From a virus: a DNA stretch of 64,000 nt. The translations under genes were made by a program, and so were the position numbers. The stretch lies in IMG/VR virus record IMGVR_UViG_3300046535_001489, positions 6,715-70,714 of that record; one strand, written 5' to 3'. Under the pieces are notes generated by a model that was not told where the DNA came from, did not search any database, and was given only the letters and a program-made list of their open reading frames with translations. This document shows, in pieces, positions 37-41,996 of the stretch. Position 1 is the stretch's first letter; each line of letters begins with the position of its first letter.

Positions 37-567
37 ATGGCTGCACATACACCTCCAGACCAGTTACTGCTAAACCTAACCCCTGCTCAAGTAGCCTATA
101 TGGCTGGGATATTTGATGGGGAAGGCTGTGTATTAATATCCCGAGTAAAGGAAAAAACAGCCTATCGAGTAGAATGTATGATCTCCAATACCGATCTAAC
201 TTTGCTGCAGACTATGCAGCTATGGTGTAATGGCATTGGATATATACGCGCAGGTAACTATAAAGCAGGACAAACACGACCATGCTATACGTGGCGAATG
301 AGTAGTCGCCGTGCTGCCTTATTTATGTCTATTATTAGACCATATTGTATTGTTAAAGCTAATCAAATAGATATAGCTATCCAGCTTAGCAATAGGATTA
401 GAGACTATGATGGCCGTAAGGTGCGGAAGCCAGGACAAACCAGAAATAAGGGAATTCCAGAAGAAGAGCTAGCCTTTAGAGACAACCTATTTTGCAGCTT
501 AAAGGAGCTACGTCGTGTCATTCCAACAGTATACCTTGGCACAAATGCGTGCCATGCTGCAAACTAA
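37..567 (+). CDS. Free-standing LAGLIDADG homing endonuclease
   Basis: AYMAGIFDGEGCV LAGLIDADG helix, then ISNTD..LL and IRPYCIVKANQ motifs. AT-richer than its neighbours. TAATG coupling to the upstream gene. Confidence 0.9.
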   Translation: MAAHTPPDQLLLNLTPAQVAYMAGIFDGEGCVLISRVKEKTAYRVECMISNTDLTLLQTMQLWCNGIGYIRAGNYKAGQTRPCYTWRMSSRRAALFMSIIRPYCIVKANQIDIAIQLSNRIRDYDGRKVRKPGQTRNKGIPEEELAFRDNLFCSLKELRRVIPTVYLGTNACHAAN

Positions 568-21277: not shown

Positions 21278-21545
21278 TAACTACTGCACTATTTGTACCA
21301 TCTGGATTAGGTTCACACTTCTTATGACAATTGCAGTTGTGATCAGGAACTTCTGGATTATGTACACAATTTGCTCCCGGCGCTGGCTCCTCGTGGTTGG
21401 GGTTGCCTTCTGGTGGCGAGGGAACGCTCTGAGCCATAGCCATTGGCATCATACAGGCAATGTAGCGAGATGGGGCCATAGCTAAACCGACTCCTGCAAA
21501 GAGGGTTGCTGAGATGACGAAGCCGCCGATGTGGTTAAGTTTCAT
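21204..21545 (-). CDS. Secreted or membrane-anchored Cys-rich small protein
   Basis: Hydrophobic N-terminus, then about 9 Cys in 55 aa. GGAG RBS. Confidence 0.6.
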   Translation of the reverse strand: MKLNHIGGFVISATLFAGVGLAMAPSRYIACMMPMAMAQSVPSPPEGNPNHEEPAPGANCVHNPEVPDHNCNCHKKCEPNPDGTNSAVVIEDNVRCRSACFKSHCSCRAENCE

Positions 21546-22267
21546 TAATTACTCCTCAACGCTGAAAGTGGGATGATCGTTGTTGCCCCTCGTCCATGGG
21601 GCAAAATCGCAATAGATTTCGCATAGCTTGCTCGCCCCTGGCAAAGCTGACAATTTTCGCATGTCGTTCTATGCCCCATTTCTGCTGAAGCAGGACAAGA
21701 TATCTCGTCAGTGAGTGGTTCTACCGAATCGCGAACTCTAAATGTTCGCCAGCCCATTTGCTGGGCTTTATCACGTTCAGCTGGGGTATCGACTGAAGCC
21801 ATTAGAAACTGCTGCAAGCTCTGGTCGCAATTTTGCCATTGATGAGTATAGCCTGTCCATGCAGATGCCTTAGTCGCCATATTTGCCCAAATAGCGGTTG
21901 GTATAGCTGCAGGGTCTCCATAGGCTCCCATACGGATACTGCGGTTATTCAAGGTGGTAACTGTAAAAGGTGGATAATTGCCTCGTTTGTAGGCTTTATA
22001 AACAGCTAATGGGCTATGGCTAACTGTGACGTAGCAACTGCGCTTTGTGTCAGCTGAGCCTCGGAATTTGCACGGCCCGCAGATGCTACTGTCGTCTCCA
22101 GTTTGAATAGCTTCCATGGGGTTTTTATCGGCCCGCAAAATCCATGTTTGGAGCATGTTGCCAGTTTTTGGGTTTTTACTGTGACGCTTTAGTCCAGTTA
22201 CGATACCAACAAGCGGAGCACCATCGAGTAGTGATGGCCCTTCGTAGAATACTGCACCGTTAGTCAT
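21545..22267 (-). CDS. Conserved Cys-rich phage protein (DUF7227/Gp88-like, possible Fe-S enzyme)
   Basis: NPKTG, SICGPC...CYV, RMGAYGDP, TGYTHQW, MASVD and CPAS...CENCQLC...HG. Confidence 0.6.
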   Translation of the reverse strand: MTNGAVFYEGPSLLDGAPLVGIVTGLKRHSKNPKTGNMLQTWILRADKNPMEAIQTGDDSSICGPCKFRGSADTKRSCYVTVSHSPLAVYKAYKRGNYPPFTVTTLNNRSIRMGAYGDPAAIPTAIWANMATKASAWTGYTHQWQNCDQSLQQFLMASVDTPAERDKAQQMGWRTFRVRDSVEPLTDEISCPASAEMGHRTTCENCQLCQGRASYAKSIAILPHGRGATTIIPLSALRSN

Positions 22268-25790: not shown

Positions 25791-26945
25791 TTACTTGACG
25801 ACATTTTCTGCTCCATCCTCGAACACCGGAAGTCTGCGTTTGTACTCTCCAGATGCCAACGGATCGGCCCCAACAGAGGGCACCCAGCAGAGATTCTTGA
25901 AGCTGCATTCGTAGCCAAAGCTCGGCTGGCATTTATTAAAATCCTGCCGAAACGCTCTGTCCAAAATCGAGGTCACTTCACCATCCGACGATGCCTGCTG
26001 CAAATTTCGTACCGCTTCAGCCACCTCGGCCTCCCGGATGAGCTGCTGGCGAAACCACGTCTGCGCGATGTCGTCGCGAGGCATGATTGGGCCGGTTTGG
26101 GGAAATTGGGCAATAATTATCTCAGACGGCATATTAGCGACCCAATCTCCTAGGTCATCGAATTCTTCAGCTACGGAGAATGCCTCCCATCCCTTTGAGC
26201 GTTGGTAGGTGTAGGAGTATTCTGGCATCATGCTGAATTGGCGGTTGACCCAGCCTTTCACGAAAATCGATCCCGGAGCACCTGTTTTCTTGTCCTTCCA
26301 GCCTTTGTTGAATCCTTGCACGAGCATTTGGTCTACACTGATGCCGAGCTGCTTAAGGGCATAGGCAGACGAGTGTAGCTGCGGTGACTTGGCCCAGTGG
26401 GCAATCCACTTAGGGGAGTCGTCCGAGGTGGTTTTGTAGTCGATGTAGACTACTTCACCGTTGAACTTTGAGCGGAGCAAGATGTCTTGGCGAAACCGAA
26501 ACCTATAAGTCGTTGCAGGAGTAGGATATCCTGGCCCCCAACCATGGATTTCTGGTTCAACAGTGTCCCAACTCCTCAACTTTTCACTTTCCACAACCTC
26601 ATACTCAGCCATCCAGCGGGGCCATACGGCTTTGACGAAGCCTCGGAGGTGCCCTTCAGCCAGTGCTGACCAGTCGCGAGCTAGGAAGGTAGCCATGCCG
26701 CTTTCGGTGGCGAGGCGGTAGCACTCTAGACGGGCTGCTACGTAGTCGATTTTGCCTTCTTTGGCTAGTAGCTCTAGATATTTGTGGATGAGATTGCCAT
26801 AGACTAAATCCCACCCCGCTTGAGCTGGCTCCAGACCAGTTCCGCCCCATTCGCTGCCATTATAGCGGGCACGTTCGCAGTGGGAATCTTGGTCACAGCG
26901 GCTAAAACTAAAGTAGCGTATTTCGCTCAAATCGCCGCCTCCCAC
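25791..26945 (-). CDS. PD-(D/E)xK exonuclease (Cas4/AddB-like)
   Basis: SFSR...C, YGNLIH, RQDIL, IDYKTT, QLHSSAY and a C-terminal C..C..C cluster. Exact start uncertain. Confidence 0.85.
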   Translation of the reverse strand: MGGGDLSEIRYFSFSRCDQDSHCERARYNGSEWGGTGLEPAQAGWDLVYGNLIHKYLELLAKEGKIDYVAARLECYRLATESGMATFLARDWSALAEGHLRGFVKAVWPRWMAEYEVVESEKLRSWDTVEPEIHGWGPGYPTPATTYRFRFRQDILLRSKFNGEVVYIDYKTTSDDSPKWIAHWAKSPQLHSSAYALKQLGISVDQMLVQGFNKGWKDKKTGAPGSIFVKGWVNRQFSMMPEYSYTYQRSKGWEAFSVAEEFDDLGDWVANMPSEIIIAQFPQTGPIMPRDDIAQTWFRQQLIREAEVAEAVRNLQQASSDGEVTSILDRAFRQDFNKCQPSFGYECSFKNLCWVPSVGADPLASGEYKRRLPVFEDGAENVVK

Positions 26946-29223: not shown

Positions 29224-29400
29224 CTAAAAGTCCATCTTGTCATGAATCCAATCAAGGTCTGATTGCATATCCTTAATCTGCGCTAAAAGGGGCTCGACAT
29301 CTTCCCATCTGCACCAAGCTCCGATTGGAGATTCTTCAATATCTATATTGTAATTATAATCTCCTACAATAACTACTTCTTCAATTTCGTATCGTTTCAT
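29224..29400 (-). CDS. Hypothetical protein
   Basis: MKRY...ESPIGAWCRWEDV, a common small phage motif. ATGA coupling. Confidence 0.55.
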   Translation of the reverse strand: MKRYEIEEVVIVGDYNYNIDIEESPIGAWCRWEDVEPLLAQIKDMQSDLDWIHDKMDF

Positions 29401-29999
29401 GCCACCACCAACACATTCACCGGCCACGCAATCCCCATCTCCCTCTTCGTCACACTCGCCCACGCCAGCGGCTTCGCAATCGTCTCCTCCAGCAGAAACA
29501 CAAACCCCTCAATCTCTGGTGACTCCTCTAGCTCAGCCTTGACTGAATCAAACAGCTCCTGGTCGGTAAATCCAGCCTTCGAGGTAATCTTCGTCTGCCC
29601 ACGATTCACAATCAACCCGCTGCCAGTCATAGGACTCACACATAGCATAAACGGCTCCTCGCATTGCATGGGGTTGCCTTTGATGTTTGGCCCAAAGGCT
29701 TCGTAAATGCCATCGTTGAGCTTGCCGCCGGGAGCGACCCGCTTAGCATTCACATAGGCAATATGCAGCAGCATATCTTCAGCTGGAAAAGTGTCAACGT
29801 CGAGCTGACATAGAGCAGCATCAGGGTCTGGGGGTGCTGGATACCATCGATATGGCAATCCTTTCTGCACTACCACTTGTACTCCATCTAGCTTAATCGT
29901 CAGCAATCCCTGCTTTTCTCTCATCCAGGCTGACTCAGGATTAATCTGAGGCACAGCCATGCCACTGGCATCCCTCACAAACAACGGTACGACTTTCAT
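29397..29999 (-). CDS. RNA ligase-like nucleotidyltransferase (DUF5565-like)
   Basis: MKVVPLFVR, TIKLDG (KxDG adenylation motif), DGIYEAFGP.I.GNP and IEGFVF. Confidence 0.65.
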   Translation of the reverse strand: MKVVPLFVRDASGMAVPQINPESAWMREKQGLLTIKLDGVQVVVQKGLPYRWYPAPPDPDAALCQLDVDTFPAEDMLLHIAYVNAKRVAPGGKLNDGIYEAFGPNIKGNPMQCEEPFMLCVSPMTGSGLIVNRGQTKITSKAGFTDQELFDSVKAELEESPEIEGFVFLLEETIAKPLAWASVTKREMGIAWPVNVLVVA

Positions 30000-30460: not shown

Positions 30461-30515
30461 TGGACCGGCCTAGACTCGAACTAGGTTATTCCGGAAGACC
30501 CCACGGTCCCGGCCC
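30461..30515 (-). ncRNA. 55-nt tRNA-like RNA lacking an anticodon arm, with alanine identity elements
   Basis: GGGCCGG/CCGGTCC-A acceptor stem with G3-U70; GACC-GTGG-GGTC; T arm CCTAG-TTCGAGT-CTAGG. Confidence 0.7.
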
Positions 30516-32743: not shown

Positions 32744-33838
32744 CTATGCCGTCACCATCGTTCCGCGCCTCTCCAACCACGTCAGATGAGCTGGATTGTG
32801 GCACGCAACTATCGGACATCCCATCGTTGTACACCTATGTTCCATGACTATGCCATTGACGACTTGGGTATCGATAACCGAGCCAAACTGCATGGTGGCA
32901 TAGTTATTGTCGTTTGTAGCCACTGCTGTTGTCTGCTTCGATGCAGTGGAATTCTTCGCTCCTGGCACATCAGCCAGCGCCGCCTCAATATCAGCAGCCA
33001 AATCCGCTACATCAGCTTCTCTACCCTCATACACCGCCAACGCATGCTCAAACCTCAACTTATCCACATACAACTCATGCAAATACTGCTCCTGCTTCAA
33101 ACTCTCCACAGCCTTTTTGCAATGCTCCTTTCTCACATGTTCTATTGCTCCCCAGTAGTCCTCCACTCCGGCAGTAATCATCAGTGCACACAGTGCTGTT
33201 CCAGTGCGCCCATGACCCCCATGGCATGCTATCACTGTTTTAGCTGGCAAAGCTTCCCATAAGTGCTGCCAGAAATCCAGCTCAACCGGGGGGATTCCCA
33301 TATCGGTCCAATCCAAGCTCAGCAATTGAGCAGTCATCACTTGGGGTTCGGGTTTGGGCACAAAGGATTCGAGCTTCTCCAACAGCGCCTTTGGCACTGT
33401 GCTAAGCGATCTTACAAACTTAGACGACGTATCACTCTTTGGCCGCACATTTCCAGCAAGGTCAATAATGAGATTCCACTGATCAGAATACTCCTTCAAC
33501 CCCTGCCAGCTCGAAGCATAGAGAGCTTTGCCTTCGTGCTCAAAGACAACTTTACTTCCAGTGTGGTCACAGGTTGGGCCAGAGATATAACCACTATTAC
33601 CACTATAACTATAACCATTCGGCCATTGATTATTTGACTGCGGCACATTTGCCCCACCCTGCCATCCACCCGCCGCTTTACTCCCTTTCTTCACCAACAT
33701 CGGTAGTTGTGTTGCCATACTCTCCTCTAGCATTTCTGCTTCTAGGTAATTCTGAATCTCATCCATTGAAGGGTCTAGGAATGCACGGCCCTTTGCAGCC
33801 TTAGCCACTTTCGCCTTCTTTTCGCGCCTACGCCCCAT
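32744..33838 (-). CDS. Protein-tyrosine / dual-specificity phosphatase-like protein
   Basis: WTDMGIP (WPD-loop equivalent), ACHGGHGRTG (CX5R) and AVESLKQEQYL (Q-loop). Start set at ATG 33838 after GAGG. Confidence 0.85.
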   Translation of the reverse strand: MGRRREKKAKVAKAAKGRAFLDPSMDEIQNYLEAEMLEESMATQLPMLVKKGSKAAGGWQGGANVPQSNNQWPNGYSYSGNSGYISGPTCDHTGSKVVFEHEGKALYASSWQGLKEYSDQWNLIIDLAGNVRPKSDTSSKFVRSLSTVPKALLEKLESFVPKPEPQVMTAQLLSLDWTDMGIPPVELDFWQHLWEALPAKTVIACHGGHGRTGTALCALMITAGVEDYWGAIEHVRKEHCKKAVESLKQEQYLHELYVDKLRFEHALAVYEGREADVADLAADIEAALADVPGAKNSTASKQTTAVATNDNNYATMQFGSVIDTQVVNGIVMEHRCTTMGCPIVACHNPAHLTWLERRGTMVTA

Positions 33839-33849
33839 TGAGAATAACC

Positions 33850-36063
33850 TCACTTTTTGACTACGAAAGGAAGTTGTTTGCCATCGTGCCATACAGCGGT
33901 GATAGTGAAGTTTGTGTCGTAATGTGCTGCGGTTGCGAGATAGCTTTCTACGATGTAGTTTACACCTTTTTCACTATTCGGATATGCCGGATAATACCCC
34001 CCAGCATCTGATGAATAGCTGCCTTCAGCTCCATAATCTTGCAGGGGCTTCAGAAACTCCTGCACATTCTCCACAGCAACCTGCACCGTTCTCGAAAAGT
34101 ACCCAATCTCCCCTACAGCAAACTGGAAATGCATGCTCACTATATTCCCGGACTGAGCTTCATATCTTACATGAATTTTAGTGACTTTGTGCTCTATGGG
34201 ATTGTAGACGATCTTTGAGAGCTTTGTTGGGCCACTTGGGTTATCTGGCTCAACAGCTAGAGGTTCTTCTTCTTTAGTATCCTCAATCTCCATTGGTTTA
34301 TCATCGATAATTTCAATGATGTCGTCGTCAGACTCATCACTATCATTAGAGTCTTCTTCAGGCAACTCACGGCTCATTCGCTCAGCAACCACAATCGGCT
34401 GCTGAAGCTTATACTGCTCCACAAGCTCAGCCGCTCGTGGATTCGTAAACTCCTTTGCTACCTGCAACGCTGCCCAACCTGCTTCGGCAATAATAGTTAG
34501 ATTCTGCTCAGCAGCATAGGTAAATGTCAGGTCGTCCCCAGTAAACTTATTCATCCACCAGCCGTTATTATGTGCTTGATTCACAGCTAGATTGAGCTTT
34601 TCTGTCATGGCTAGCACATTAGCATGTGTTGGCCAGCGAAGCATCTCCAAAATAGCCGTATCCAACTCAATCAATGCTGCTGTACACTTTCCCCACTCTT
34701 TACCACCATAACCCTGTGGCCACGAGTCATACACAAACGCTTCGTGGGCAATTTTTAGCATCTGCCGGGATGAGAAGAACTGTTTGAAGGAGAGCTGATA
34801 GATATTACTTCGTAGAGTTGTTGTTCCGCCCCCTCCAGGCCGATGCCTTGCTTCTCCATGAGCTGCAGCCAGTCCCATTCTCAGCATCACTGCAGCACTA
34901 ACCCCCAACCACACCCCATACCCATTGCTCATTGCAGGGGCATTGTGGAGCGCCACGAGCATCAGTTTGATGGCTTGGGCTCTCTCAGACCTATCGCTAT
35001 CACTAAAATCCAGCACCAACCCAATCCCCAAACCCCTCATCACCGCTTTAGGATCTGGAGGTCGAATGTCGGCTTTAGGCTCCTTCTCCAGCCATTCCCC
35101 AACCACTGGCATTCTCGATGTCATAATGGGGATTCGATTGAGCAGACAATGCACCCCATAGTGGGATATCACACTCCCGCCAAGATGCACCACAACTGTG
35201 CCTTGCCGAATCTCAGCTGTTTGGGATTCCCACAGCTGCAAGTCCCCCGAAGCCTCAAGAATCCTCTCCACCTGCACACGCTGAGGAATGTAGTCTCGCT
35301 CAATCCCAGCAATCTTAGGGCCTGCGCGGAGTTGGGTGAAGTGCCAACTATTCTTTCGCACTGCTTCAACATATGGTGAGCTATCCTCGCCCACCCCTGC
35401 AGCACGAATTACAGCTTCATCCAAATCCCCAAACGGCGCACCGATAAGTGGAAGCTCAATCGACTCATGCCCCGAAGTGGCCCCATCATGCCCTACACCT
35501 ACTGAAATTTTGTAGGGAGTAATAACTGCATTTGCAGTGGCTCCTTCGATCAGCGGGCACAGCAACACTTCAGCATGTGGATCTGCGGCTTGGGCTTCAT
35601 GAAAGATAGCTCGCAGAGCTTCTTTATCGTTTTTAGCCACAGGCCGGCTGTCAACAAAGCCATGCCGGGGTCGCTCGGGGCACGGTCTGGCGAAGTAGGG
35701 TGGAGAATATATATAAGGACTCGATGCCCCTACAATAATATCAATATCCCCCTCTTCACCGATGATATAGTAGGGTCTGGGCACAGTCAAACTACTCTTA
35801 TGGGCAAGAGTAATATACCCTCTAGACTTCTGCGTGCGAGGCTGCACGAATCCTCTATTCACCGCAGCTGTACGGCTATCAATACTCTCCCCAACTGCAA
35901 CGCATTCACTCTCCTCACATATATGATGAATCTCGCAAAACGGCTCCTTGCACAAAATACACAGAGGCTCGACTTTGACTTTCGGCACATCTCCCTCCAC
36001 TGCTGGCGAATTAGGCAGATACTTCTTCGAGAGTTGGGCTAGCGTTTGCGGGCTGAGAGCCAT
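33850..36063 (-). CDS. PEP-utiliser / PPDK-like phosphotransferase (degenerate ATP-grasp, His swivel, helical domain)
   Basis: FARPCP.RPRHGFVDSR, FTQLRAGP and GGSVISHYGVHC..NRIP (swivel His); GEARH, GYGGKEW and AHNNGWWMNKF. Confidence 0.6.
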   Translation of the reverse strand: MALSPQTLAQLSKKYLPNSPAVEGDVPKVKVEPLCILCKEPFCEIHHICEESECVAVGESIDSRTAAVNRGFVQPRTQKSRGYITLAHKSSLTVPRPYYIIGEEGDIDIIVGASSPYIYSPPYFARPCPERPRHGFVDSRPVAKNDKEALRAIFHEAQAADPHAEVLLCPLIEGATANAVITPYKISVGVGHDGATSGHESIELPLIGAPFGDLDEAVIRAAGVGEDSSPYVEAVRKNSWHFTQLRAGPKIAGIERDYIPQRVQVERILEASGDLQLWESQTAEIRQGTVVVHLGGSVISHYGVHCLLNRIPIMTSRMPVVGEWLEKEPKADIRPPDPKAVMRGLGIGLVLDFSDSDRSERAQAIKLMLVALHNAPAMSNGYGVWLGVSAAVMLRMGLAAAHGEARHRPGGGGTTTLRSNIYQLSFKQFFSSRQMLKIAHEAFVYDSWPQGYGGKEWGKCTAALIELDTAILEMLRWPTHANVLAMTEKLNLAVNQAHNNGWWMNKFTGDDLTFTYAAEQNLTIIAEAGWAALQVAKEFTNPRAAELVEQYKLQQPIVVAERMSRELPEEDSNDSDESDDDIIEIIDDKPMEIEDTKEEEPLAVEPDNPSGPTKLSKIVYNPIEHKVTKIHVRYEAQSGNIVSMHFQFAVGEIGYFSRTVQVAVENVQEFLKPLQDYGAEGSYSSDAGGYYPAYPNSEKGVNYIVESYLATAAHYDTNFTITAVWHDGKQLPFVVKK

Positions 36064-36430
36064 TAACTTTCTCCTTCTTCTTCAAATCCCTATGCTCAAT
36101 TTCCACATCCCAACCATTTTCACGGCACTGCTGAGCAATAATCTCCACAATCGCTACAGAACGATGTTTGCCGCCTTGGCAACCGATAGCAGCTGTGTAG
36201 AAACCAAGACTTAGCTGTGTCATAGCTTTATTGATAATCACCTGCGCCCCCGCGCACTTCGTCACAAATGCCTGGACATCAGAGTCAAGCCCATTGAGCT
36301 TTCGCAGCTTTGGATGCCGCCACGGGTTACGAACAGTTTTGCGGGCATCGTGGACTCTTGTGAAGCTGCTATTTGAGATTTTACCATTCTTGTAGGCAAA
36401 CGAAATGAGCTTGACTTTCTTCGCTTCCAT
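36011..36430 (-). CDS. Stand-alone RapZ C-terminal domain protein
   Basis: LISFAYKNG, DAR...RNPW..PKLRKLNGLD.DV and AIGCQGGKHRSVAIVE...IEHRDL. Confidence 0.85.
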   Translation of the reverse strand: MEAKKVKLISFAYKNGKISNSSFTRVHDARKTVRNPWRHPKLRKLNGLDSDVQAFVTKCAGAQVIINKAMTQLSLGFYTAAIGCQGGKHRSVAIVEIIAQQCRENGWDVEIEHRDLKKKEKVNGSQPANASPTLEEVSA

Positions 36431-38862: not shown

Positions 38863-39126
38863 CTATTTGACCTCCTTTAAACTGTCAGGAAGAAAAAGTA
38901 TATCTTCCACATTCATTTTCCAGCCATTGTCTTCACCAAGACGATAAGGGGCTACTTCTATATTACTTACGCCTTGTTCATCAAACACAGTCCCATCAAA
39001 GGCACAAGTATATAGATTCTGAGTTTTGTGGTAGTTAACCTCATCTAGGCTACCACATTCAGGACAGGTGAGCGGTTGGCCATGTGTAAACACCACCGCA
39101 TTTAGATGTTTAATATAAGTAAGCAT
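38863..39126 (-). CDS. Zinc-ribbon protein
   Basis: CPECG...C..D. Confidence 0.5.
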   Translation of the reverse strand: MLTYIKHLNAVVFTHGQPLTCPECGSLDEVNYHKTQNLYTCAFDGTVFDEQGVSNIEVAPYRLGEDNGWKMNVEDILFLPDSLKEVK

Positions 39127-39132
39127 CGAAAC

Positions 39133-39432
39133 CTACTGCAACCCCTTCGGTCCAGGTACCCAGTTAGCCTCTGGCATCTTTGGAGTAGACTCACACGCCA
39201 CTGTATCCTTCTCAGCATCCTCAGCCAACGAAGGGTCCACAGCCAGAATCCGCTCCTTTACTGACATCATCTTCTCTACAGATGTTCCAGCCAAGAAATC
39301 ATCAATATCAGCAGCTGCGGCTTTGAGAGCTGTTGACAATTCCTTTGTGGGTGGAATCCCTGTCACACCAAATGACACCAACAGAATGTCGAACAAATCA
39401 TGAACAACAGCATAGCGATTCACTTCAGACAT
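39133..39432 (-). CDS. Hypothetical protein
   Basis: GGAGG upstream. Confidence 0.55.
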   Translation of the reverse strand: MSEVNRYAVVHDLFDILLVSFGVTGIPPTKELSTALKAAAADIDDFLAGTSVEKMMSVKERILAVDPSLAEDAEKDTVACESTPKMPEANWVPGPKGLQ

Positions 39433-39483
39433 CTCTCAATCCTCCCTTATTTGATGTTGACTTCCACCACGAATTTAAAGGGT

Positions 39484-39580
39484 TGCCACAGGCAGGCGTC
39501 GAACCTACTAATAAGTATATTACGTAGGATAATATACTTATCAACACCAAAGGATTCCTACATCCTATTGTGTCTGTAGC
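39484..39580 (-). ncRNA. 97-nt tRNA-like RNA with elongated arms and complementary loops
   Basis: GCTACAG/CTGTGGC-A acceptor stem; T arm GTAGG-TTCGACG-CCTGC; 14-bp arm with loop TCCTACG; D-position arm loop GTAGGA. Confidence 0.65.
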
Positions 39581-39590
39581 ATAAACTTAG

Positions 39591-39664
39591 CTTTCTCAAT
39601 GGGACGCTGGAGCAGATTATATCAGGCTATTCCTGATTCAAGCTCCAACGCCCTATTCAAAAAG
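39591..39664 (-). ncRNA. Candidate long hairpin RNA
   Basis: GGGCGTTGGAGC/GCTCCAGCGTCC (two G-U pairs on the minus strand) and an apical ATCAGG/CCTGAT. Confidence 0.45.
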
Positions 39665-40268
39665 CGGCAGTTTTTGGTGCTGCGATAACTGCCAACGCCA
39701 TGCCGTTTAGGATACGGTCAAACTCTGCTGTTTTAACAATATATAATCTAAGCTCCGTTTAACCGACTACGGAGAAGGCTGAAGGCTATGTAGCGGTTAT
39801 TTGAGATACCACCTAAACTCTTCACGTTGGCTCAACCCGGTGGGCTATTCATCATTCACCCATTCTGCCTATTGGCCAGTTAAGGATAAATCTATACCAC
39901 ACACATGCTAAAAGCGGGCTTTCACTTAATAGCCCAATGTGCCAGCCTTTTGACGGCTCCCTATAATTATAGGGACGTATCTGGTCACCCACATTTATAT
40001 TATAGGCTGTCTTTCCAGCAGTCAGCCCGTAGGCGATGGAGTGGAGCATAAGACTCCTTTTAATTATTTGTGTTTATTCCAGCAAAAGGCACAACACTGC
40101 TTTATACGGTTTGGCTCGCCTCCAAAGAAGATACGTTTACACCACTGACAAATGATACTATCTGATAAATACATGGGCTATAAACCTACTTATCGTATCC
40201 CCGAATCTTCCTCAACTCCAGACACGCACGAATCAGTTGCTGTTGCAGATTGGACATAGGTGCTCCTT

Positions 40269-40763: not shown

Positions 40764-41025
40764 AGCCCATCCCTTCCAGCATTGTTGAATGCTAGGTCCC
40801 TGTCAGCCTTAGTGTCGAAACTGCGAATGATGATATACGTTCCGTCGTCTTCGCAGCCGCAACAAAGCTGTATAGCAATGCAATACTTCCCATTGTGGTC
40901 TATCTTAATCATCGTCGCTACCTCCTTATCTAAACCAAAAGCTTAGATAAAGAGATGCTAGTCTTTTTCTACAGACATACGCTGTAGTGGCTAAAGACTA
41001 GCAAAACCCAGCGACGATGCCGACC

Positions 41026-41427: not shown

Positions 41428-41500
41428 TTCGTAACCTCTCTAGGCTATACGGTATGTTTATTGCTACTAGCTAACCCGTATCATTAGCAAGTAGTAGATT

Positions 41501-41791
41501 GATTATCAATCTAAAGCATAGGACAGTCGGAAGTTAGCGTTTACTTATACGATAACCATTCTTCGCCGTCGATAGTTACAGTTCTCGGTGCCTTAGCCAT
41601 CGCTTCTGCCTTGTTCAACGCAATCCTTGCAGACTTAAGCTTACGGTGAACGTCGGCAGCTTGCCAGATGGCCATTCCATCAGCAGGCAAGCTTTCGATA
41701 CTTGCTAATGCTGCATGGGCTTCGCTGAATCGTTCATCAATCTTTAGCATGTTGATGCTCCAAGACTGTCCTATCCTGTAGAGTGATAATC
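41501..41791. repeat. 28-bp inverted repeat flanking ORF 41541-41750
   Basis: 41501-41528 versus 41764-41791: 25 of 28 positions complementary. Confidence 0.75.
41541..41750 (-). CDS. Small early protein
   Basis: GGAG RBS. First clear ORF after the non-coding region. Confidence 0.55.
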   Translation of the reverse strand: MLKIDERFSEAHAALASIESLPADGMAIWQAADVHRKLKSARIALNKAEAMAKAPRTVTIDGEEWLSYK

Positions 41792-41794
41792 ATT

Positions 41795-41996
41795 CGATAG
41801 AACCCTTAAGAAAACCCTAAGGCAAGCCAGGTGAGGATTATCAACGTCTTGGCGCATGCTGTAGGTGTTCGCATAGCCTAAGACTTCTGAAGTCTTTATC
41901 TATGTCGGTCGTTACAGTGGCTTGAAGGTGTGTTGTATGTTCTCAGGCTAAAAGCCTATTCTGTCAACCTTAAGGGCTTTACTAAAGGTTCTATCG
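41795..41996. repeat. About 28-bp imperfect inverted repeat enclosing about 145 nt
   Basis: CGATAGAACCCTTAAGAAAACCCTAAGG versus CCTTAAGGGCTTTACTAAAGGTTCTATCG. Confidence 0.7.

What the first reader, a model, noticed from the sequence alone, without database searches (positions are those of the whole stretch)
39484..39580. tRNA-shaped RNA with a 14-bp arm, a CUA-centred loop and an internal kissing loop
Seen on the minus strand: a 7-bp acceptor stem plus A, a TTCGA T arm, an extended D-position arm with loop GTAGGA, and a 14-bp arm with the 7-nt loop TCCTACG. GTAGGA and TCCTAC are exactly complementary (6 bp). As in the 30461 mimic, the arm follows the acceptor stem with no U8/9 linker. The CUA is at the anticodon position, but the arm length and C33 argue against decoding. 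Inference: a second, compact tRNA mimic of a type I do not recognise.
Basis: partly seen in the sequence, partly recalled or inferred. Interest (0 to 1): 0.72.

Follow-up and report, generated by a model that had tools for sequence, protein, structure and literature searches.

The report
Orphan tRNA-shaped RNA in soil phage
A 97-base stretch between two early genes of an uncultured soil phage folds into a very stable tRNA look-alike that cannot decode. It most likely marks a cutting site for the host's tRNA-trimming enzymes, but no relatives or RNA data exist to prove it.

Summary
On the minus strand, 39580..39484 folds into a linker-free four-arm cloverleaf (MFE -40.8 kcal/mol, z -6.96). It has a 7-bp acceptor stem plus A, a canonical 5-bp T arm with loop UUCGACG, a 12-layer D-position arm (loop GUAGGA) and a 14-bp arm (loop UCCUACG). 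The two loops are exactly complementary (chance about 6e-4).

It is not a tRNA. ARAGORN and Rfam find nothing. C33, C37 and the 14-bp stem exclude decoding, and TAG is an ordinary stop in this phage.

The host is a complete 70.7-kb DTR podophage from soil with no canonical tRNA gene. It has exactly two acceptor/T-arm modules, this one and 30462-30515, against 0.2 expected.

No homologue was found anywhere I could reach. Covariation and expression are therefore untested.

Best reading (about 0.4): a t-element-like RNase P/Z processing signal in an early transcript that also releases a stable non-decoding tRNA mimic. The purpose of the complementary loops is open. In the tRNA-like stacking they cannot kiss within one molecule.

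I class it as a new variant of a known kind, of moderate interest.

The parts
39484..39580 (-). whole 97-nt tRNA-shaped element (5' end at 39580, discriminator A at 39484)
   Evidence: own covariance model scores 119.1 bits on the minus strand against 29.3 on the plus strand
39574..39580 (-). acceptor stem 5' strand GCUACAG, preceded by U at -1 (39581)
39485..39491 (-). acceptor stem 3' strand CUGUGGC. A73-equivalent at 39484 is followed by ACC, so no CCA is encoded
39492..39508 (-). T arm GUAGG-UUCGACG-CCUGC (5 bp, 7-nt loop, G53-C61, U54...A58)
39544..39573 (-). D-position arm: 4 bp, 3x3 internal loop (AAU/UUG), 5 bp; loop GUAGGA at 39561-39556
39509..39543 (-). 14-bp A+U-rich arm with 7-nt loop UCCUACG (39529-39523); CUA at loop positions 3-5
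39590..39665 (-). long imperfect hairpin (about 29 paired layers) directly upstream of the element
39616..39624 (-). TGATATAAT, the only TGNTATAAT in the 64-kb window on either strand; lies 35 nt before the element, inside the apical part of the upstream hairpin
   Evidence: not listed by the two-hexamer promoter scan
39133..39448 (-). downstream SD AAGGGAGG (39448-39441) and orphan 99-aa ORF (ATG 39432, stop UAG 39135-39133 in context CAG-UAG-GUU)

Best explanation
This is a phage-encoded, non-decoding tRNA-like RNA module in an early, leftward transcript.

Its top half is a 7-bp acceptor stem stacked on a 5-bp T stem, with a canonical T loop, U at -1 and A at the discriminator position. That is the shape bacterial RNase P reads, and it is also read by RNase Z, 3' trimming enzymes and the CCA-adding enzyme. 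I infer that host RNase P cuts between 39581 and 39580, and that a 3' enzyme cuts near 39484.

The element would then act like a plant-mitochondrial t-element. It separates what lies upstream (a long protective hairpin, or a short leader from the TGATATAAT promoter-like site) from the mRNA of the 99-aa ORF. It also releases a very stable RNA of about 97 nt.

Shown: the fold, its strand, its tRNA-like top half, its non-tRNA bottom half, and its position between co-oriented genes.

Inferred: transcription, the two cuts, and any role of the released RNA.
For: - The fold is far beyond chance and is strand-specific.
- The 12-bp acceptor/T stack plus a UUCGA T loop occurs only twice in the genome, against 0.2 expected.
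- The genome has no canonical tRNA, so these are not by-products of a tRNA cluster.
- The element lies in a 419-nt gap between co-oriented small early ORFs. This gap is one of the two most structured of the 22 gaps tested (z -7.5).
- U is at -1 and A at 73.
[quoted passage not shown] They also state that it processes phage M3 RNA, phage C4 antisense RNA and mRNAs.
- The abstract of PMC1920247 defines t-elements as tRNA-like structures at mRNA 5' or 3' ends that most likely direct RNase Z and/or RNase P.
- Earlier AI notes of this scan describe tRNA top-half mimics in other phages. These are leads only and do not count as support.
Against: - No homologue exists in anything I could search, so there is no covariation and no proof of selection.
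- There is no evidence on RNA ends.
- A mere cutting signal does not need a perfect 14-bp arm, a 12-layer arm or two exactly complementary loops. Those features remain unexplained.
- The element lacks nucleotides 8-9 and a D loop that could reach the T loop, so the tRNA elbow that RNase P's specificity domain contacts may be incomplete.
- CCA is not encoded: the 3' side reads A-ACC.
- The host and its RNase P type are unknown.
Confidence: 0.4

Rival explanations
1. C4-like regulatory RNA. The element is cut from the leader, and its exposed loops then act as short antisense sequences on phage (or host) mRNAs. For example, the anti-SD-like loop UCCUACG could pair with GUAGG at a ribosome-binding site.
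For: - Architecture resembles C4: a closing stem plus hairpins with exposed loops, in the leader of the operon it might regulate. In C4, RNase P makes the 5' end and loops a' and b' bind the target so that the RBS is occluded (passages of PMC5320573).
- CCUAC is complementary to GUAGG spanning the UAG stop of the 99-aa ORF. That sequence is also the likely weak SD of the next ORF.
- The best loop-to-start-region duplexes are -13.4 kcal/mol, against a mean of -5.8 and sd 2.1 over 113 start regions. They lie at 21545-22267 and 25791-26945 and share AUACGUGGGA.
Against: - There is no Rfam C4 hit, even at E<=10.
- The match at the adjacent gene is only 5 bp. GUAGG context occurs at 3 of 28 TAG stops, so it is not enriched.
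- The -13.4 duplexes use two stem nucleotides and a G.U pair, and they are the top of 226 tests.
- There are no homologues in which loop and target could co-vary.
Confidence: 0.15
2. Decoy or sponge. The released tRNA look-alike binds a host factor that recognises the tRNA top half, such as a tRNA-targeting defence nuclease, a modification or CCA-adding enzyme, or RNase P itself. The rigid bottom half keeps it out of translation.
For: - The top half is canonical while the anticodon region is deliberately non-canonical.
- It lies in the hypervariable early region, among orphan genes. By general knowledge, phage counter-defence genes usually sit in such regions.
- A second mimic lies in the same genome.
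Against: - No partner was identified. PADLOC (0 of 10 neighbours) and Pfam show no tRNA enzyme, Ro60 or nuclease nearby.
- A loop displaced by nine extra base pairs is a poor bait for anticodon nucleases.
- This reading is purely inferential.
Confidence: 0.13
3. Self-pairing switch or multimer. The two complementary loops pair in one of two ways. (a) Within one molecule, in the alternative junction stacking (acceptor on D arm, long arm on T arm), which would hide the tRNA-like top half. (b) Between molecules, giving dimers or head-to-tail chains, as in phi29 pRNA or the ornate phage RNAs.
For: - Exact 6-bp loop-loop complementarity, p about 6e-4. It is extendable to 8 bp (AUGUAGGA/UCCUACGU, one U.G) if two stem pairs open.
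- Duplex energy is -6.7 kcal/mol.
- The two arms are of similar length, 12 layers and 14 bp.
- The junction has no unpaired bases and so can stack either way.
- The second mimic carries the palindrome UUCCGGAA at the equivalent position.
- Natural RNA self-association through kissing loops is documented for pRNAs (abstract of PMC4201828) and for GOLLD/ROOL (abstract of 10.1101/2024.12.08.627333).
Against: - I had no tool for pseudoknots or RNA 3D modelling.
- There are no homologues to test loop covariation.
- The repeats UAGGA/UAGGA and AUCCU/AUCCU inside the element could have produced the complementarity as a by-product.
- No phi29-type packaging system is present: this phage has a classical large terminase.
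Confidence: 0.12
4. No RNA function. The element would be a recent chance palindrome cluster, a decayed tRNA gene, or a DNA-level site such as a protein-binding or cruciform-forming inverted repeat.
For: - It is a singleton. The flanking 99-aa ORF is also an orphan, and the whole early region is not conserved in relatives.
- The 14-bp arm is a near-perfect DNA palindrome.
Against: - There is a strong strand asymmetry: -40.8 against -24.0 kcal/mol, with three G.U pairs.
- The T-loop consensus is complete and the stem lengths are exactly 7+5.
- All four arms are intact with no junction slack, which is unlike decay.
- Removing any arm does not give a canonical tRNA. ARAGORN at 80% threshold gives only a forced 'tRNA-Ser' with mismatched stems.
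Confidence: 0.12
5. A working amber suppressor (or a stop-codon-directed RNA) that lets the 99-aa ORF read through its UAG into the in-frame 87-aa ORF.
For: - CUA sits at the anticodon position.
- The very next ORF ends in UAG with context G-UAG-G, complementary to C33-C37 of the loop. It is in frame with the following ORF through that single UAG.
Against: - C33 and C37 stand where tRNAs have U33 and a purine at 37. The 14-bp stem adds about 25 A, so the anticodon and the acceptor end cannot span the ribosome (established tRNA geometry).
- TAG is a common stop here.
- The only relative of the second ORF is a free-standing 78-aa protein that starts at that ORF's own Met. No protein spans both halves. 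The search returned 4 hits in 1.84 billion representatives: the query's own ORF1, that 78-aa protein, and two long repetitive proteins.
- GUAGG also serves as the SD of the second ORF.
Confidence: 0.03

Closest known systems
t-elements of plant mitochondria (tRNA-like processing signals; Forner et al. 2007, PMC1920247, abstract read)
   Same: A tRNA-like fold that is not a tRNA, placed between genes of a polycistronic transcript and read by RNase P and/or RNase Z to make mRNA ends.
   Different: - Different genetic system: here a bacteriophage with a bacterial host.
- Cleavage is not shown here.
- This element has two long, perfectly paired extra arms with complementary loops.
Acceptor/T-arm model hairpin substrates of bacterial RNase P (passages of PMC11143913)
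   Same: A 7+5-bp coaxial acceptor/T stack with a T loop is sufficient for correct cleavage by E. coli RNase P RNA.
   Different: - Those are synthetic minimal hairpins.
- Here two additional arms are inserted at a four-way junction, and no CCA is encoded.
C4 antisense RNA of phages P1/P7 (Rfam RF01695, number recalled; passages of PMC5320573)
   Same: - A phage RNA cut out of the leader of its own operon by RNase P.
- A closing stem with hairpins whose loops carry the specificity.
   Different: - No sequence or structure match to the Rfam model.
- C4 has no T arm.
- C4 loops match a downstream RBS over two sites. Here only a 5-bp match was found, and the two loops match each other.
Stable tRNA-like RNAs of phage tRNA clusters (T4 species 1 and 2; T5/BF23 RNA2). 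Recalled, and named in an earlier AI note
   Same: Phage-encoded, tRNA-sized, tRNA-like RNAs that do not decode and have no known function.
   Different: - Those lie within tRNA gene clusters, whereas this phage has no tRNA gene at all.
- Sequence relatedness could not be tested.
MALAT1/mascRNA arrangement (recalled)
   Same: A stabilising structure directly upstream of a tRNA-like element, so that RNase P cleavage creates a protected 3' end and frees a small tRNA-like RNA.
   Different: - That is a eukaryotic nuclear lncRNA with a triple helix rather than a hairpin.
- Here it is only an analogy for the long hairpin 39665-39590 that ends 9 nt before the element.
Bacterial Y RNA YrlA tRNA-like domain (recalled)
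   Same: A non-decoding tRNA mimic with a long helix in place of the anticodon stem.
   Different: - In YrlA the RNA ends lie in the long helix and the acceptor is closed, so it is circularly permuted relative to this element.
- No Rfam hit.
- No Ro60/TROVE protein among the 80 ORFs scanned with Pfam.

Membership tests
canonical tRNA | 7-bp acceptor stem, 5-bp T stem, 7-nt T loop with UUCRA, G53-C61 | tested here: met
canonical tRNA | two-nucleotide linker 8-9, 3-4-bp D stem with a 7-11-nt loop carrying G18G19, and a variable region | tested here: not met
   There are no unpaired junction bases. The D-position arm is 4 bp + 3x3 loop + 5 bp with a 6-nt loop.
canonical tRNA | 5-bp anticodon stem; loop with U33 and a purine at 37 | tested here: not met
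   The stem is 14 bp and the loop UCCUACG has C33 and C37.
canonical tRNA | recognised by ARAGORN or Rfam tRNA models | tested here: not met
   0 genes, also with introns allowed. No tRNA-type Rfam hit at E<=10. Only a forced class-II call with mismatched stems at the 80% threshold.
t-element-like tRNA processing signal / RNase P substrate | coaxial acceptor/T stack of 12 bp with a T loop | tested here: met
t-element-like tRNA processing signal / RNase P substrate | lies between co-transcribed genes, in their sense | tested here: met
   It lies in the gap 39433-39851 between minus-strand ORFs. The fold is specific to the minus strand. Co-transcription itself is inferred.
t-element-like tRNA processing signal / RNase P substrate | RNA ends map to the element's 5' and/or 3' border | not testable with these tools
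   No RNA run holds the locus. The laid runs are DNA contigs.
t-element-like tRNA processing signal / RNase P substrate | fold kept by compensatory changes in relatives | tested here: inconclusive
   No homologue was found in 169 loci, 19 whole related records, IMG/VR pattern scans or GTDB genomes.
C4 antisense RNA | match to the Rfam covariance model | tested here: not met
   (E<=10, 39200-39900)
C4 antisense RNA | two loops complementary to the RBS region of a downstream gene of the same operon | tested here: inconclusive
   Only CCUAC/GUAGG (5 bp) at the ORF1 stop / ORF2 SD. See also the duplex scan.
tmRNA | tRNA-like domain made from the RNA's two ends, plus a tag reading frame | tested here: not met
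   ARAGORN finds no tmRNA. The acceptor closes within 97 nt.
bacterial Y RNA (YrlA) | Rfam match, termini in the long helix, and a Ro60/Rsr partner | tested here: not met
   No Rfam hit. The termini are in the acceptor stem. No TROVE domain in 80 ORFs.
phi29-type pRNA | Rfam match and a phi29-like packaging system | tested here: not met
   No Rfam hit. The phage has a classical large terminase and an SU10/P22-type portal.

The most novel reading that the evidence does not exclude
The element is a two-state or self-assembling tRNA mimic. The linker-free four-way junction lets it alternate between two forms. In the open form, acceptor stacks on T arm and it is read by RNase P, the CCA enzyme or other tRNA-binding factors. 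In the other form, the 6-8-bp GUAGGA/UCCUAC pairing either clamps the two long arms side by side and hides the tRNA face, or links molecules head to tail into dimers or chains that display rows of tRNA top halves. That would be a natural tRNA-shaped RNA whose activity is gated or multiplied by a programmed kissing interaction, which is not described for any phage RNA I know of.
Probability: 0.12. Interest if true: 0.75.

Novelty: new variant of a known kind. Interest (0 to 1): 0.5.

Why it matters
Phages are known to carry tRNAs and a few unexplained tRNA-like stable RNAs. This phage has no tRNA gene at all, yet it carries two separate copies of the tRNA top half.

If the element is cut by RNase P/Z, it extends the 'tRNA punctuation' principle of organelles to transcripts of a tailed phage. 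It would also give a simple, testable rule for finding processing sites in uncultured phage genomes.

If the complementary loops are functional, it would be a compact natural example of a tRNA mimic gated or multimerised by a kissing interaction. That would be of interest for RNA structure and RNA nanotechnology.

At present it is one sequence with no relatives, so its weight is limited.

Tried and rejected
Homologues of the element: none found.
- blastn-short of 39440-39700 found only two 13-nt chance matches (E 3.2) in 80 IMG/VR loci and nothing in all 160 loci.
- Single-sequence covariance model R1 over 99 sources found only the element itself, its reverse strand and one true tRNA-Gln at E 3.9. 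Over 70 further sources it found 0. Over whole related virus records it found 0 of 19, with one locus not held.
- Loop/T-loop pattern in IMG/VR gave 8 stretches, none of which fits the model.
- Top-half pattern allowing C or U at position 3 gave 15 stretches with 16 matches. All have GCCACAG and are 73-91 nt. The 3 whose ARAGORN rows I saw are tRNA-Leu, tRNA-Phe and tRNA-Leu, and none has the long arms.
- The exact 22-nt 3' part gave 0 matches in GTDB genomes.

Neighbouring proteins as handles:
- The 737-aa protein gave no IMG/VR match.
- The 99-aa ORF matches only itself.
- The 164-aa ORF has three relatives (51-55% identity), on NCBI contigs that I could not fetch.
- Terminase relatives are many: 749 at E<=1e-10. 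The closest (68-81% identity) are in collections I could not read. The IMG/VR and metagenome loci lack the early-region genes.

Expression and natural variation:
- No RNA holder is listed among the 10 runs.
- Laying 4 DNA runs gave only identical short contigs. One 449-nt contig of X2 covers 39425-39873 with 0 differences. There is therefore no natural variation to read.

Other ideas checked:
In phage contigs the same stem serves several identities, so it says nothing firm about identity or host.
- Read-through fusion of the two downstream ORFs: not supported.
- Enrichment of G-UAG-G stop contexts: 3 of 28, not enriched.
- Repeats and operators: no repeated motif links the element to other sites. 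The 21-nt, 76% match to 40957-40977 is within chance for 8 kb.
- CsrA-type GGA hairpin and ribosome standby site: considered from the sequence only and not tested.
- Earlier notes of this scan on this genome or on this sequence: none.
- Supplementary tables of PMC10690425 (candidate structured RNAs of IMG/VR) might list this locus. Supplements were closed, so I did not see them.

Full report
**What the window is.** The window is bases 6715-70714 of a 70,714-bp virus record with direct terminal repeats, rated complete. Gene content is that of a tailed phage:
- large terminase, portal and major head protein;
- SU10-type portal and adaptor domains;
- family A DNA polymerase, UDG-like protein, PD-(D/E)XK nuclease and AAA primase/helicase-like protein.

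Cultured relatives are very distant. The best portal match is 26% identity, to two Tunturiibacter phages. Short identical pieces of the locus occur in soil and rhizosphere DNA runs. TAG ends 28 of 113 greedy ORFs (TAA 59, TGA 26), so the standard code is in use. ARAGORN finds no tRNA or tmRNA in the window or in the remaining 6.8 kb.

**The observation.** Read on the minus strand from 39580 to 39484, the 97 nt are:
- GCUACAG (acceptor 5' strand);
- ACAC / AAU / AGGAU-GUAGGA-AUCCU / UUG / GUGU (D-position arm);
- UGAUAAGUAUAUUA-UCCUACG-UAAUAUACUUAUUA (14-bp arm);
- GUAGG-UUCGACG-CCUGC (T arm);
- CUGUGGC (acceptor 3' strand), then A.

The junction is a perfect four-way junction.

ViennaRNA returns this cloverleaf as MFE and centroid at -40.8 kcal/mol. 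Shuffles average -20.7, giving z -6.96, and 0 of 200 fold as well. The fold survives in 256-nt and 419-nt contexts. Twenty suboptimal structures lie within 3 kcal/mol; the twelve lowest, the ones printed, differ only by single pairs at helix ends.

The plus-strand transcript would reach only -24.0 kcal/mol. Three of the 35 pairs are G.U. My covariance model scores 119 bits on the minus strand against 29 on the plus strand. The structure therefore belongs to an RNA in the sense of the surrounding genes.

**Is the tRNA likeness more than chance?** I wrote a scanner for a 5-bp stem closing a 7-nt loop that begins UUCRA, followed at once by seven bases that pair with a heptamer 30-200 nt upstream (later 7-200 nt).
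- In the whole genome it finds this element and one other, 30462-30515 on the same strand.
- Two hundred composition-preserving shuffles gave 0.205 hits on average. At least two hits occurred in 3 of 200, and at least two hits of 100 nt or less in 0 of 200.
- In 1.06 Mb of related phage DNA it gave six hits. One is a real tRNA-Gln; the others are 113-150 nt and G+C-rich.

The T loop has U54, U55, C56, G57 and A58, and the stem ends in G53-C61. Acceptor plus T stem make the 12-bp stack of a tRNA. U precedes the first base and A follows the last pair. The top half is thus a faithful tRNA top half.

**Why it is not a tRNA.**
- There are no nucleotides 8-9 and no variable region.
- The D-position arm is about 12 layers long with a 6-nt loop.
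- The 'anticodon' stem has 14 pairs.
- Its loop has C at 33 and C at 37.
- Rfam gives nothing at gathering score in the window. At E<=10 in 39200-39900 it gives six chance-level hits, none of them to a tRNA, tmRNA, C4, Y RNA or pRNA model.
- ARAGORN with introns allowed finds nothing. At 80% threshold it forces a 'tRNA-Ser' with mismatched acceptor and anticodon stems.

One coincidence deserved a test. The ORF that follows the element (39432-39133, 99 aa) ends in UAG in the context G-UAG-G, which is complementary to C33-C37 of the loop. It is also in frame with the next ORF (39126-38863) through that single UAG. A profile-free HMMER search of the read-through product against 1.84 billion representatives returned four proteins: the query's own ORF1, two long repetitive proteins, and one 78-aa protein that matches only the second half and starts at that ORF's own Met. 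G-UAG-G occurs at 3 of 28 TAG stops, and GUAGG is also the plausible SD of the second ORF. Read-through is not supported.

**Context.** The element lies in a 419-nt gap between small minus-strand ORFs of the early region. Of 22 gaps of 90 nt or more in that region, this one and 40764-41025 are by far the most structured (z -7.5 and -7.6 with 40 shuffles each).
- Directly upstream, at 39665-39590, is a long imperfect hairpin of about 29 paired layers. It ends 9 nt before the element.
- Its apical part holds TGATATAAT (39624-39616), the only TGNTATAAT in the 64-kb window on either strand. About two would be expected by chance, so this is only a hint of a promoter. The two-hexamer scan did not list it.
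- Downstream, 35 nt separate the element from the SD AAGGGAGG. In the MFE, part of the SD pairs with CCCUU next to the element's 3' end.

No neighbour has a PHROG, Pfam or PADLOC match that points to tRNA biology. The nearest notable protein is a RapZ C-terminal-domain protein 3 kb away.

**Relatives.** The terminase has hundreds of relatives, so the phage belongs to a large uncultured family. However, the early region is not conserved. Among 160 fetched loci only one (L004) keeps even the RapZ-C-like gene. No search found a second copy of the element:
- blastn;
- covariance model over 169 sources;
- 19 whole related records;
- two IMG/VR pattern scans;
- one exact scan of GTDB genomes.

The 99-aa ORF is an orphan. 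The closest phages (68-81% terminase identity) and three relatives of the 164-aa neighbour sit in collections I could not read. DNA runs that hold the locus show no variant, and none of the listed runs is RNA. Conservation, covariation and expression are therefore all untested.

**Mechanism.** The best-supported reading uses what is firmly known about the top half.
[quoted passage not shown] It also processes phage M3 RNA, the phage C4 antisense RNA and some mRNAs (passages of PMC11143913).
- In plant mitochondria, tRNA-like 't-elements' at mRNA ends most likely direct RNase P and/or RNase Z (abstract of PMC1920247).

I therefore propose that this element is a processing signal in an early transcript. 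RNase P would cut between 39581 and 39580. A 3' enzyme would cut near 39484 and free the mRNA of the 99-aa ORF. A stable 97-nt RNA would be released. If transcription reads in from upstream, the cut would leave the upstream RNA ending in the long hairpin, an arrangement recalling MALAT1/mascRNA (recalled). Earlier AI notes of this scan report tRNA top-half mimics in other phages and read them the same way. I used them as leads only. I give this reading 0.4.

**What it does not explain.** It does not explain the bottom half: a perfect 14-bp arm, an arm of similar length, and two loops that are exact complements. The probability is 5.8e-4 for one pair of loops and 1.7e-3 for any of the three pairs. 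The duplex energy is -6.7 kcal/mol. The pairing is extendable to 8 bp if two stem pairs open.

Geometry gives a constraint, which is inference. In the tRNA-like stacking (acceptor on T), the other two arms are coaxial and point away from each other, so the loops can pair only between molecules. In the alternative stacking the two arms lie side by side and could pair within one molecule, but then the tRNA-like stack is lost.

This leaves three interesting rivals:
- a C4-like antisense RNA whose loops act on mRNAs (weak candidate sites only);
- a decoy for a tRNA-binding host factor;
- a self-pairing switch or multimer.

The second mimic at 30462-30515 carries the palindrome UUCCGGAA where its anticodon arm would be. 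That fits the multimer idea but proves nothing.

**Verdict.** This is a real, statistically solid, strand-specific tRNA-shaped RNA fold that is not a tRNA and matches no described family I could test. By its top half it belongs with tRNA-like processing signals and phage tRNA-like stable RNAs. Its linker-free junction, long arms and complementary loops make it a new variant. Because it is a singleton without RNA data, function rests on inference.

Noticed in passing
window 30462-30515 (minus): Second acceptor/T-arm module, 54 nt: GGGCCGG, a 4-bp hairpin, single-stranded UUCCGGAAUAA (containing the palindrome UUCCGGAA), T arm CCUAG-UUCGAGU-CUAGG, then CCGGUCC-A. In the MFE register the acceptor has G3.U70 with A73, which is the alanine identity pair (recalled). 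A 6-bp alternative register also exists. It is followed by CUAUUUUU. It lies in a 516-nt gap upstream of a weak RNA-ligase-like ORF (29397-29999).
   Followed up: partly
window 40913-41025 (minus): Three-way junction: an 11-bp closing stem with 11- and 16-bp hairpins. It sequesters the SD AAGGAGG and the AUG of a 50-aa ORF (40912-40760). The gap 40764-41025 has z -6.1 to -7.6.
   Followed up: partly
window 39133-39135 and 38863-39432 (minus): The 99-aa ORF stops at UAG in the context G-UAG-G (complementary to CCUAC of the element's loop) and is in frame with the next 87-aa zinc-ribbon-like ORF. The only relative of the second ORF is free-standing, so read-through is not supported.
   Followed up: yes
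window 36011-36430 (minus): 139-aa protein consisting of a RapZ C-terminal (RNA-binding) domain only (PF22740, E 4.5e-24). It is the only early-region gene also found in a related phage record (L004, 36% identity).
   Followed up: partly
window 32744-33892 and 29397-29999 (minus): A 382-aa protein with a dual-specificity/PTP phosphatase motif region, and a 200-aa ORF with a weak N-terminal RNA-ligase PHROG match. Together with the RapZ-C protein these are possible RNA-end or RNA-handling genes in the same leftward cluster.
   Followed up: no
window 41497-41528 / 41764-41795: A 32-nt inverted repeat (88% complementary) flanks a 69-aa ORF (41541-41750). The gap 41428-41540 folds with z -3.4.
   Followed up: no
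window 21545-22267 and 25791-26945 start regions (minus): Both start regions contain AUACGUGGGA, which can pair with UCCUACGUA of the element (9 bp with one G.U, -13.4 kcal/mol). In the second case the motif follows TATAAT.
   Followed up: no
window 37-567 (plus): Weak LAGLIDADG homing-endonuclease match (E 6.7e-4, below the Pfam cut-off) in a 176-aa ORF ahead of the SU10-type adaptor genes.
   Followed up: no
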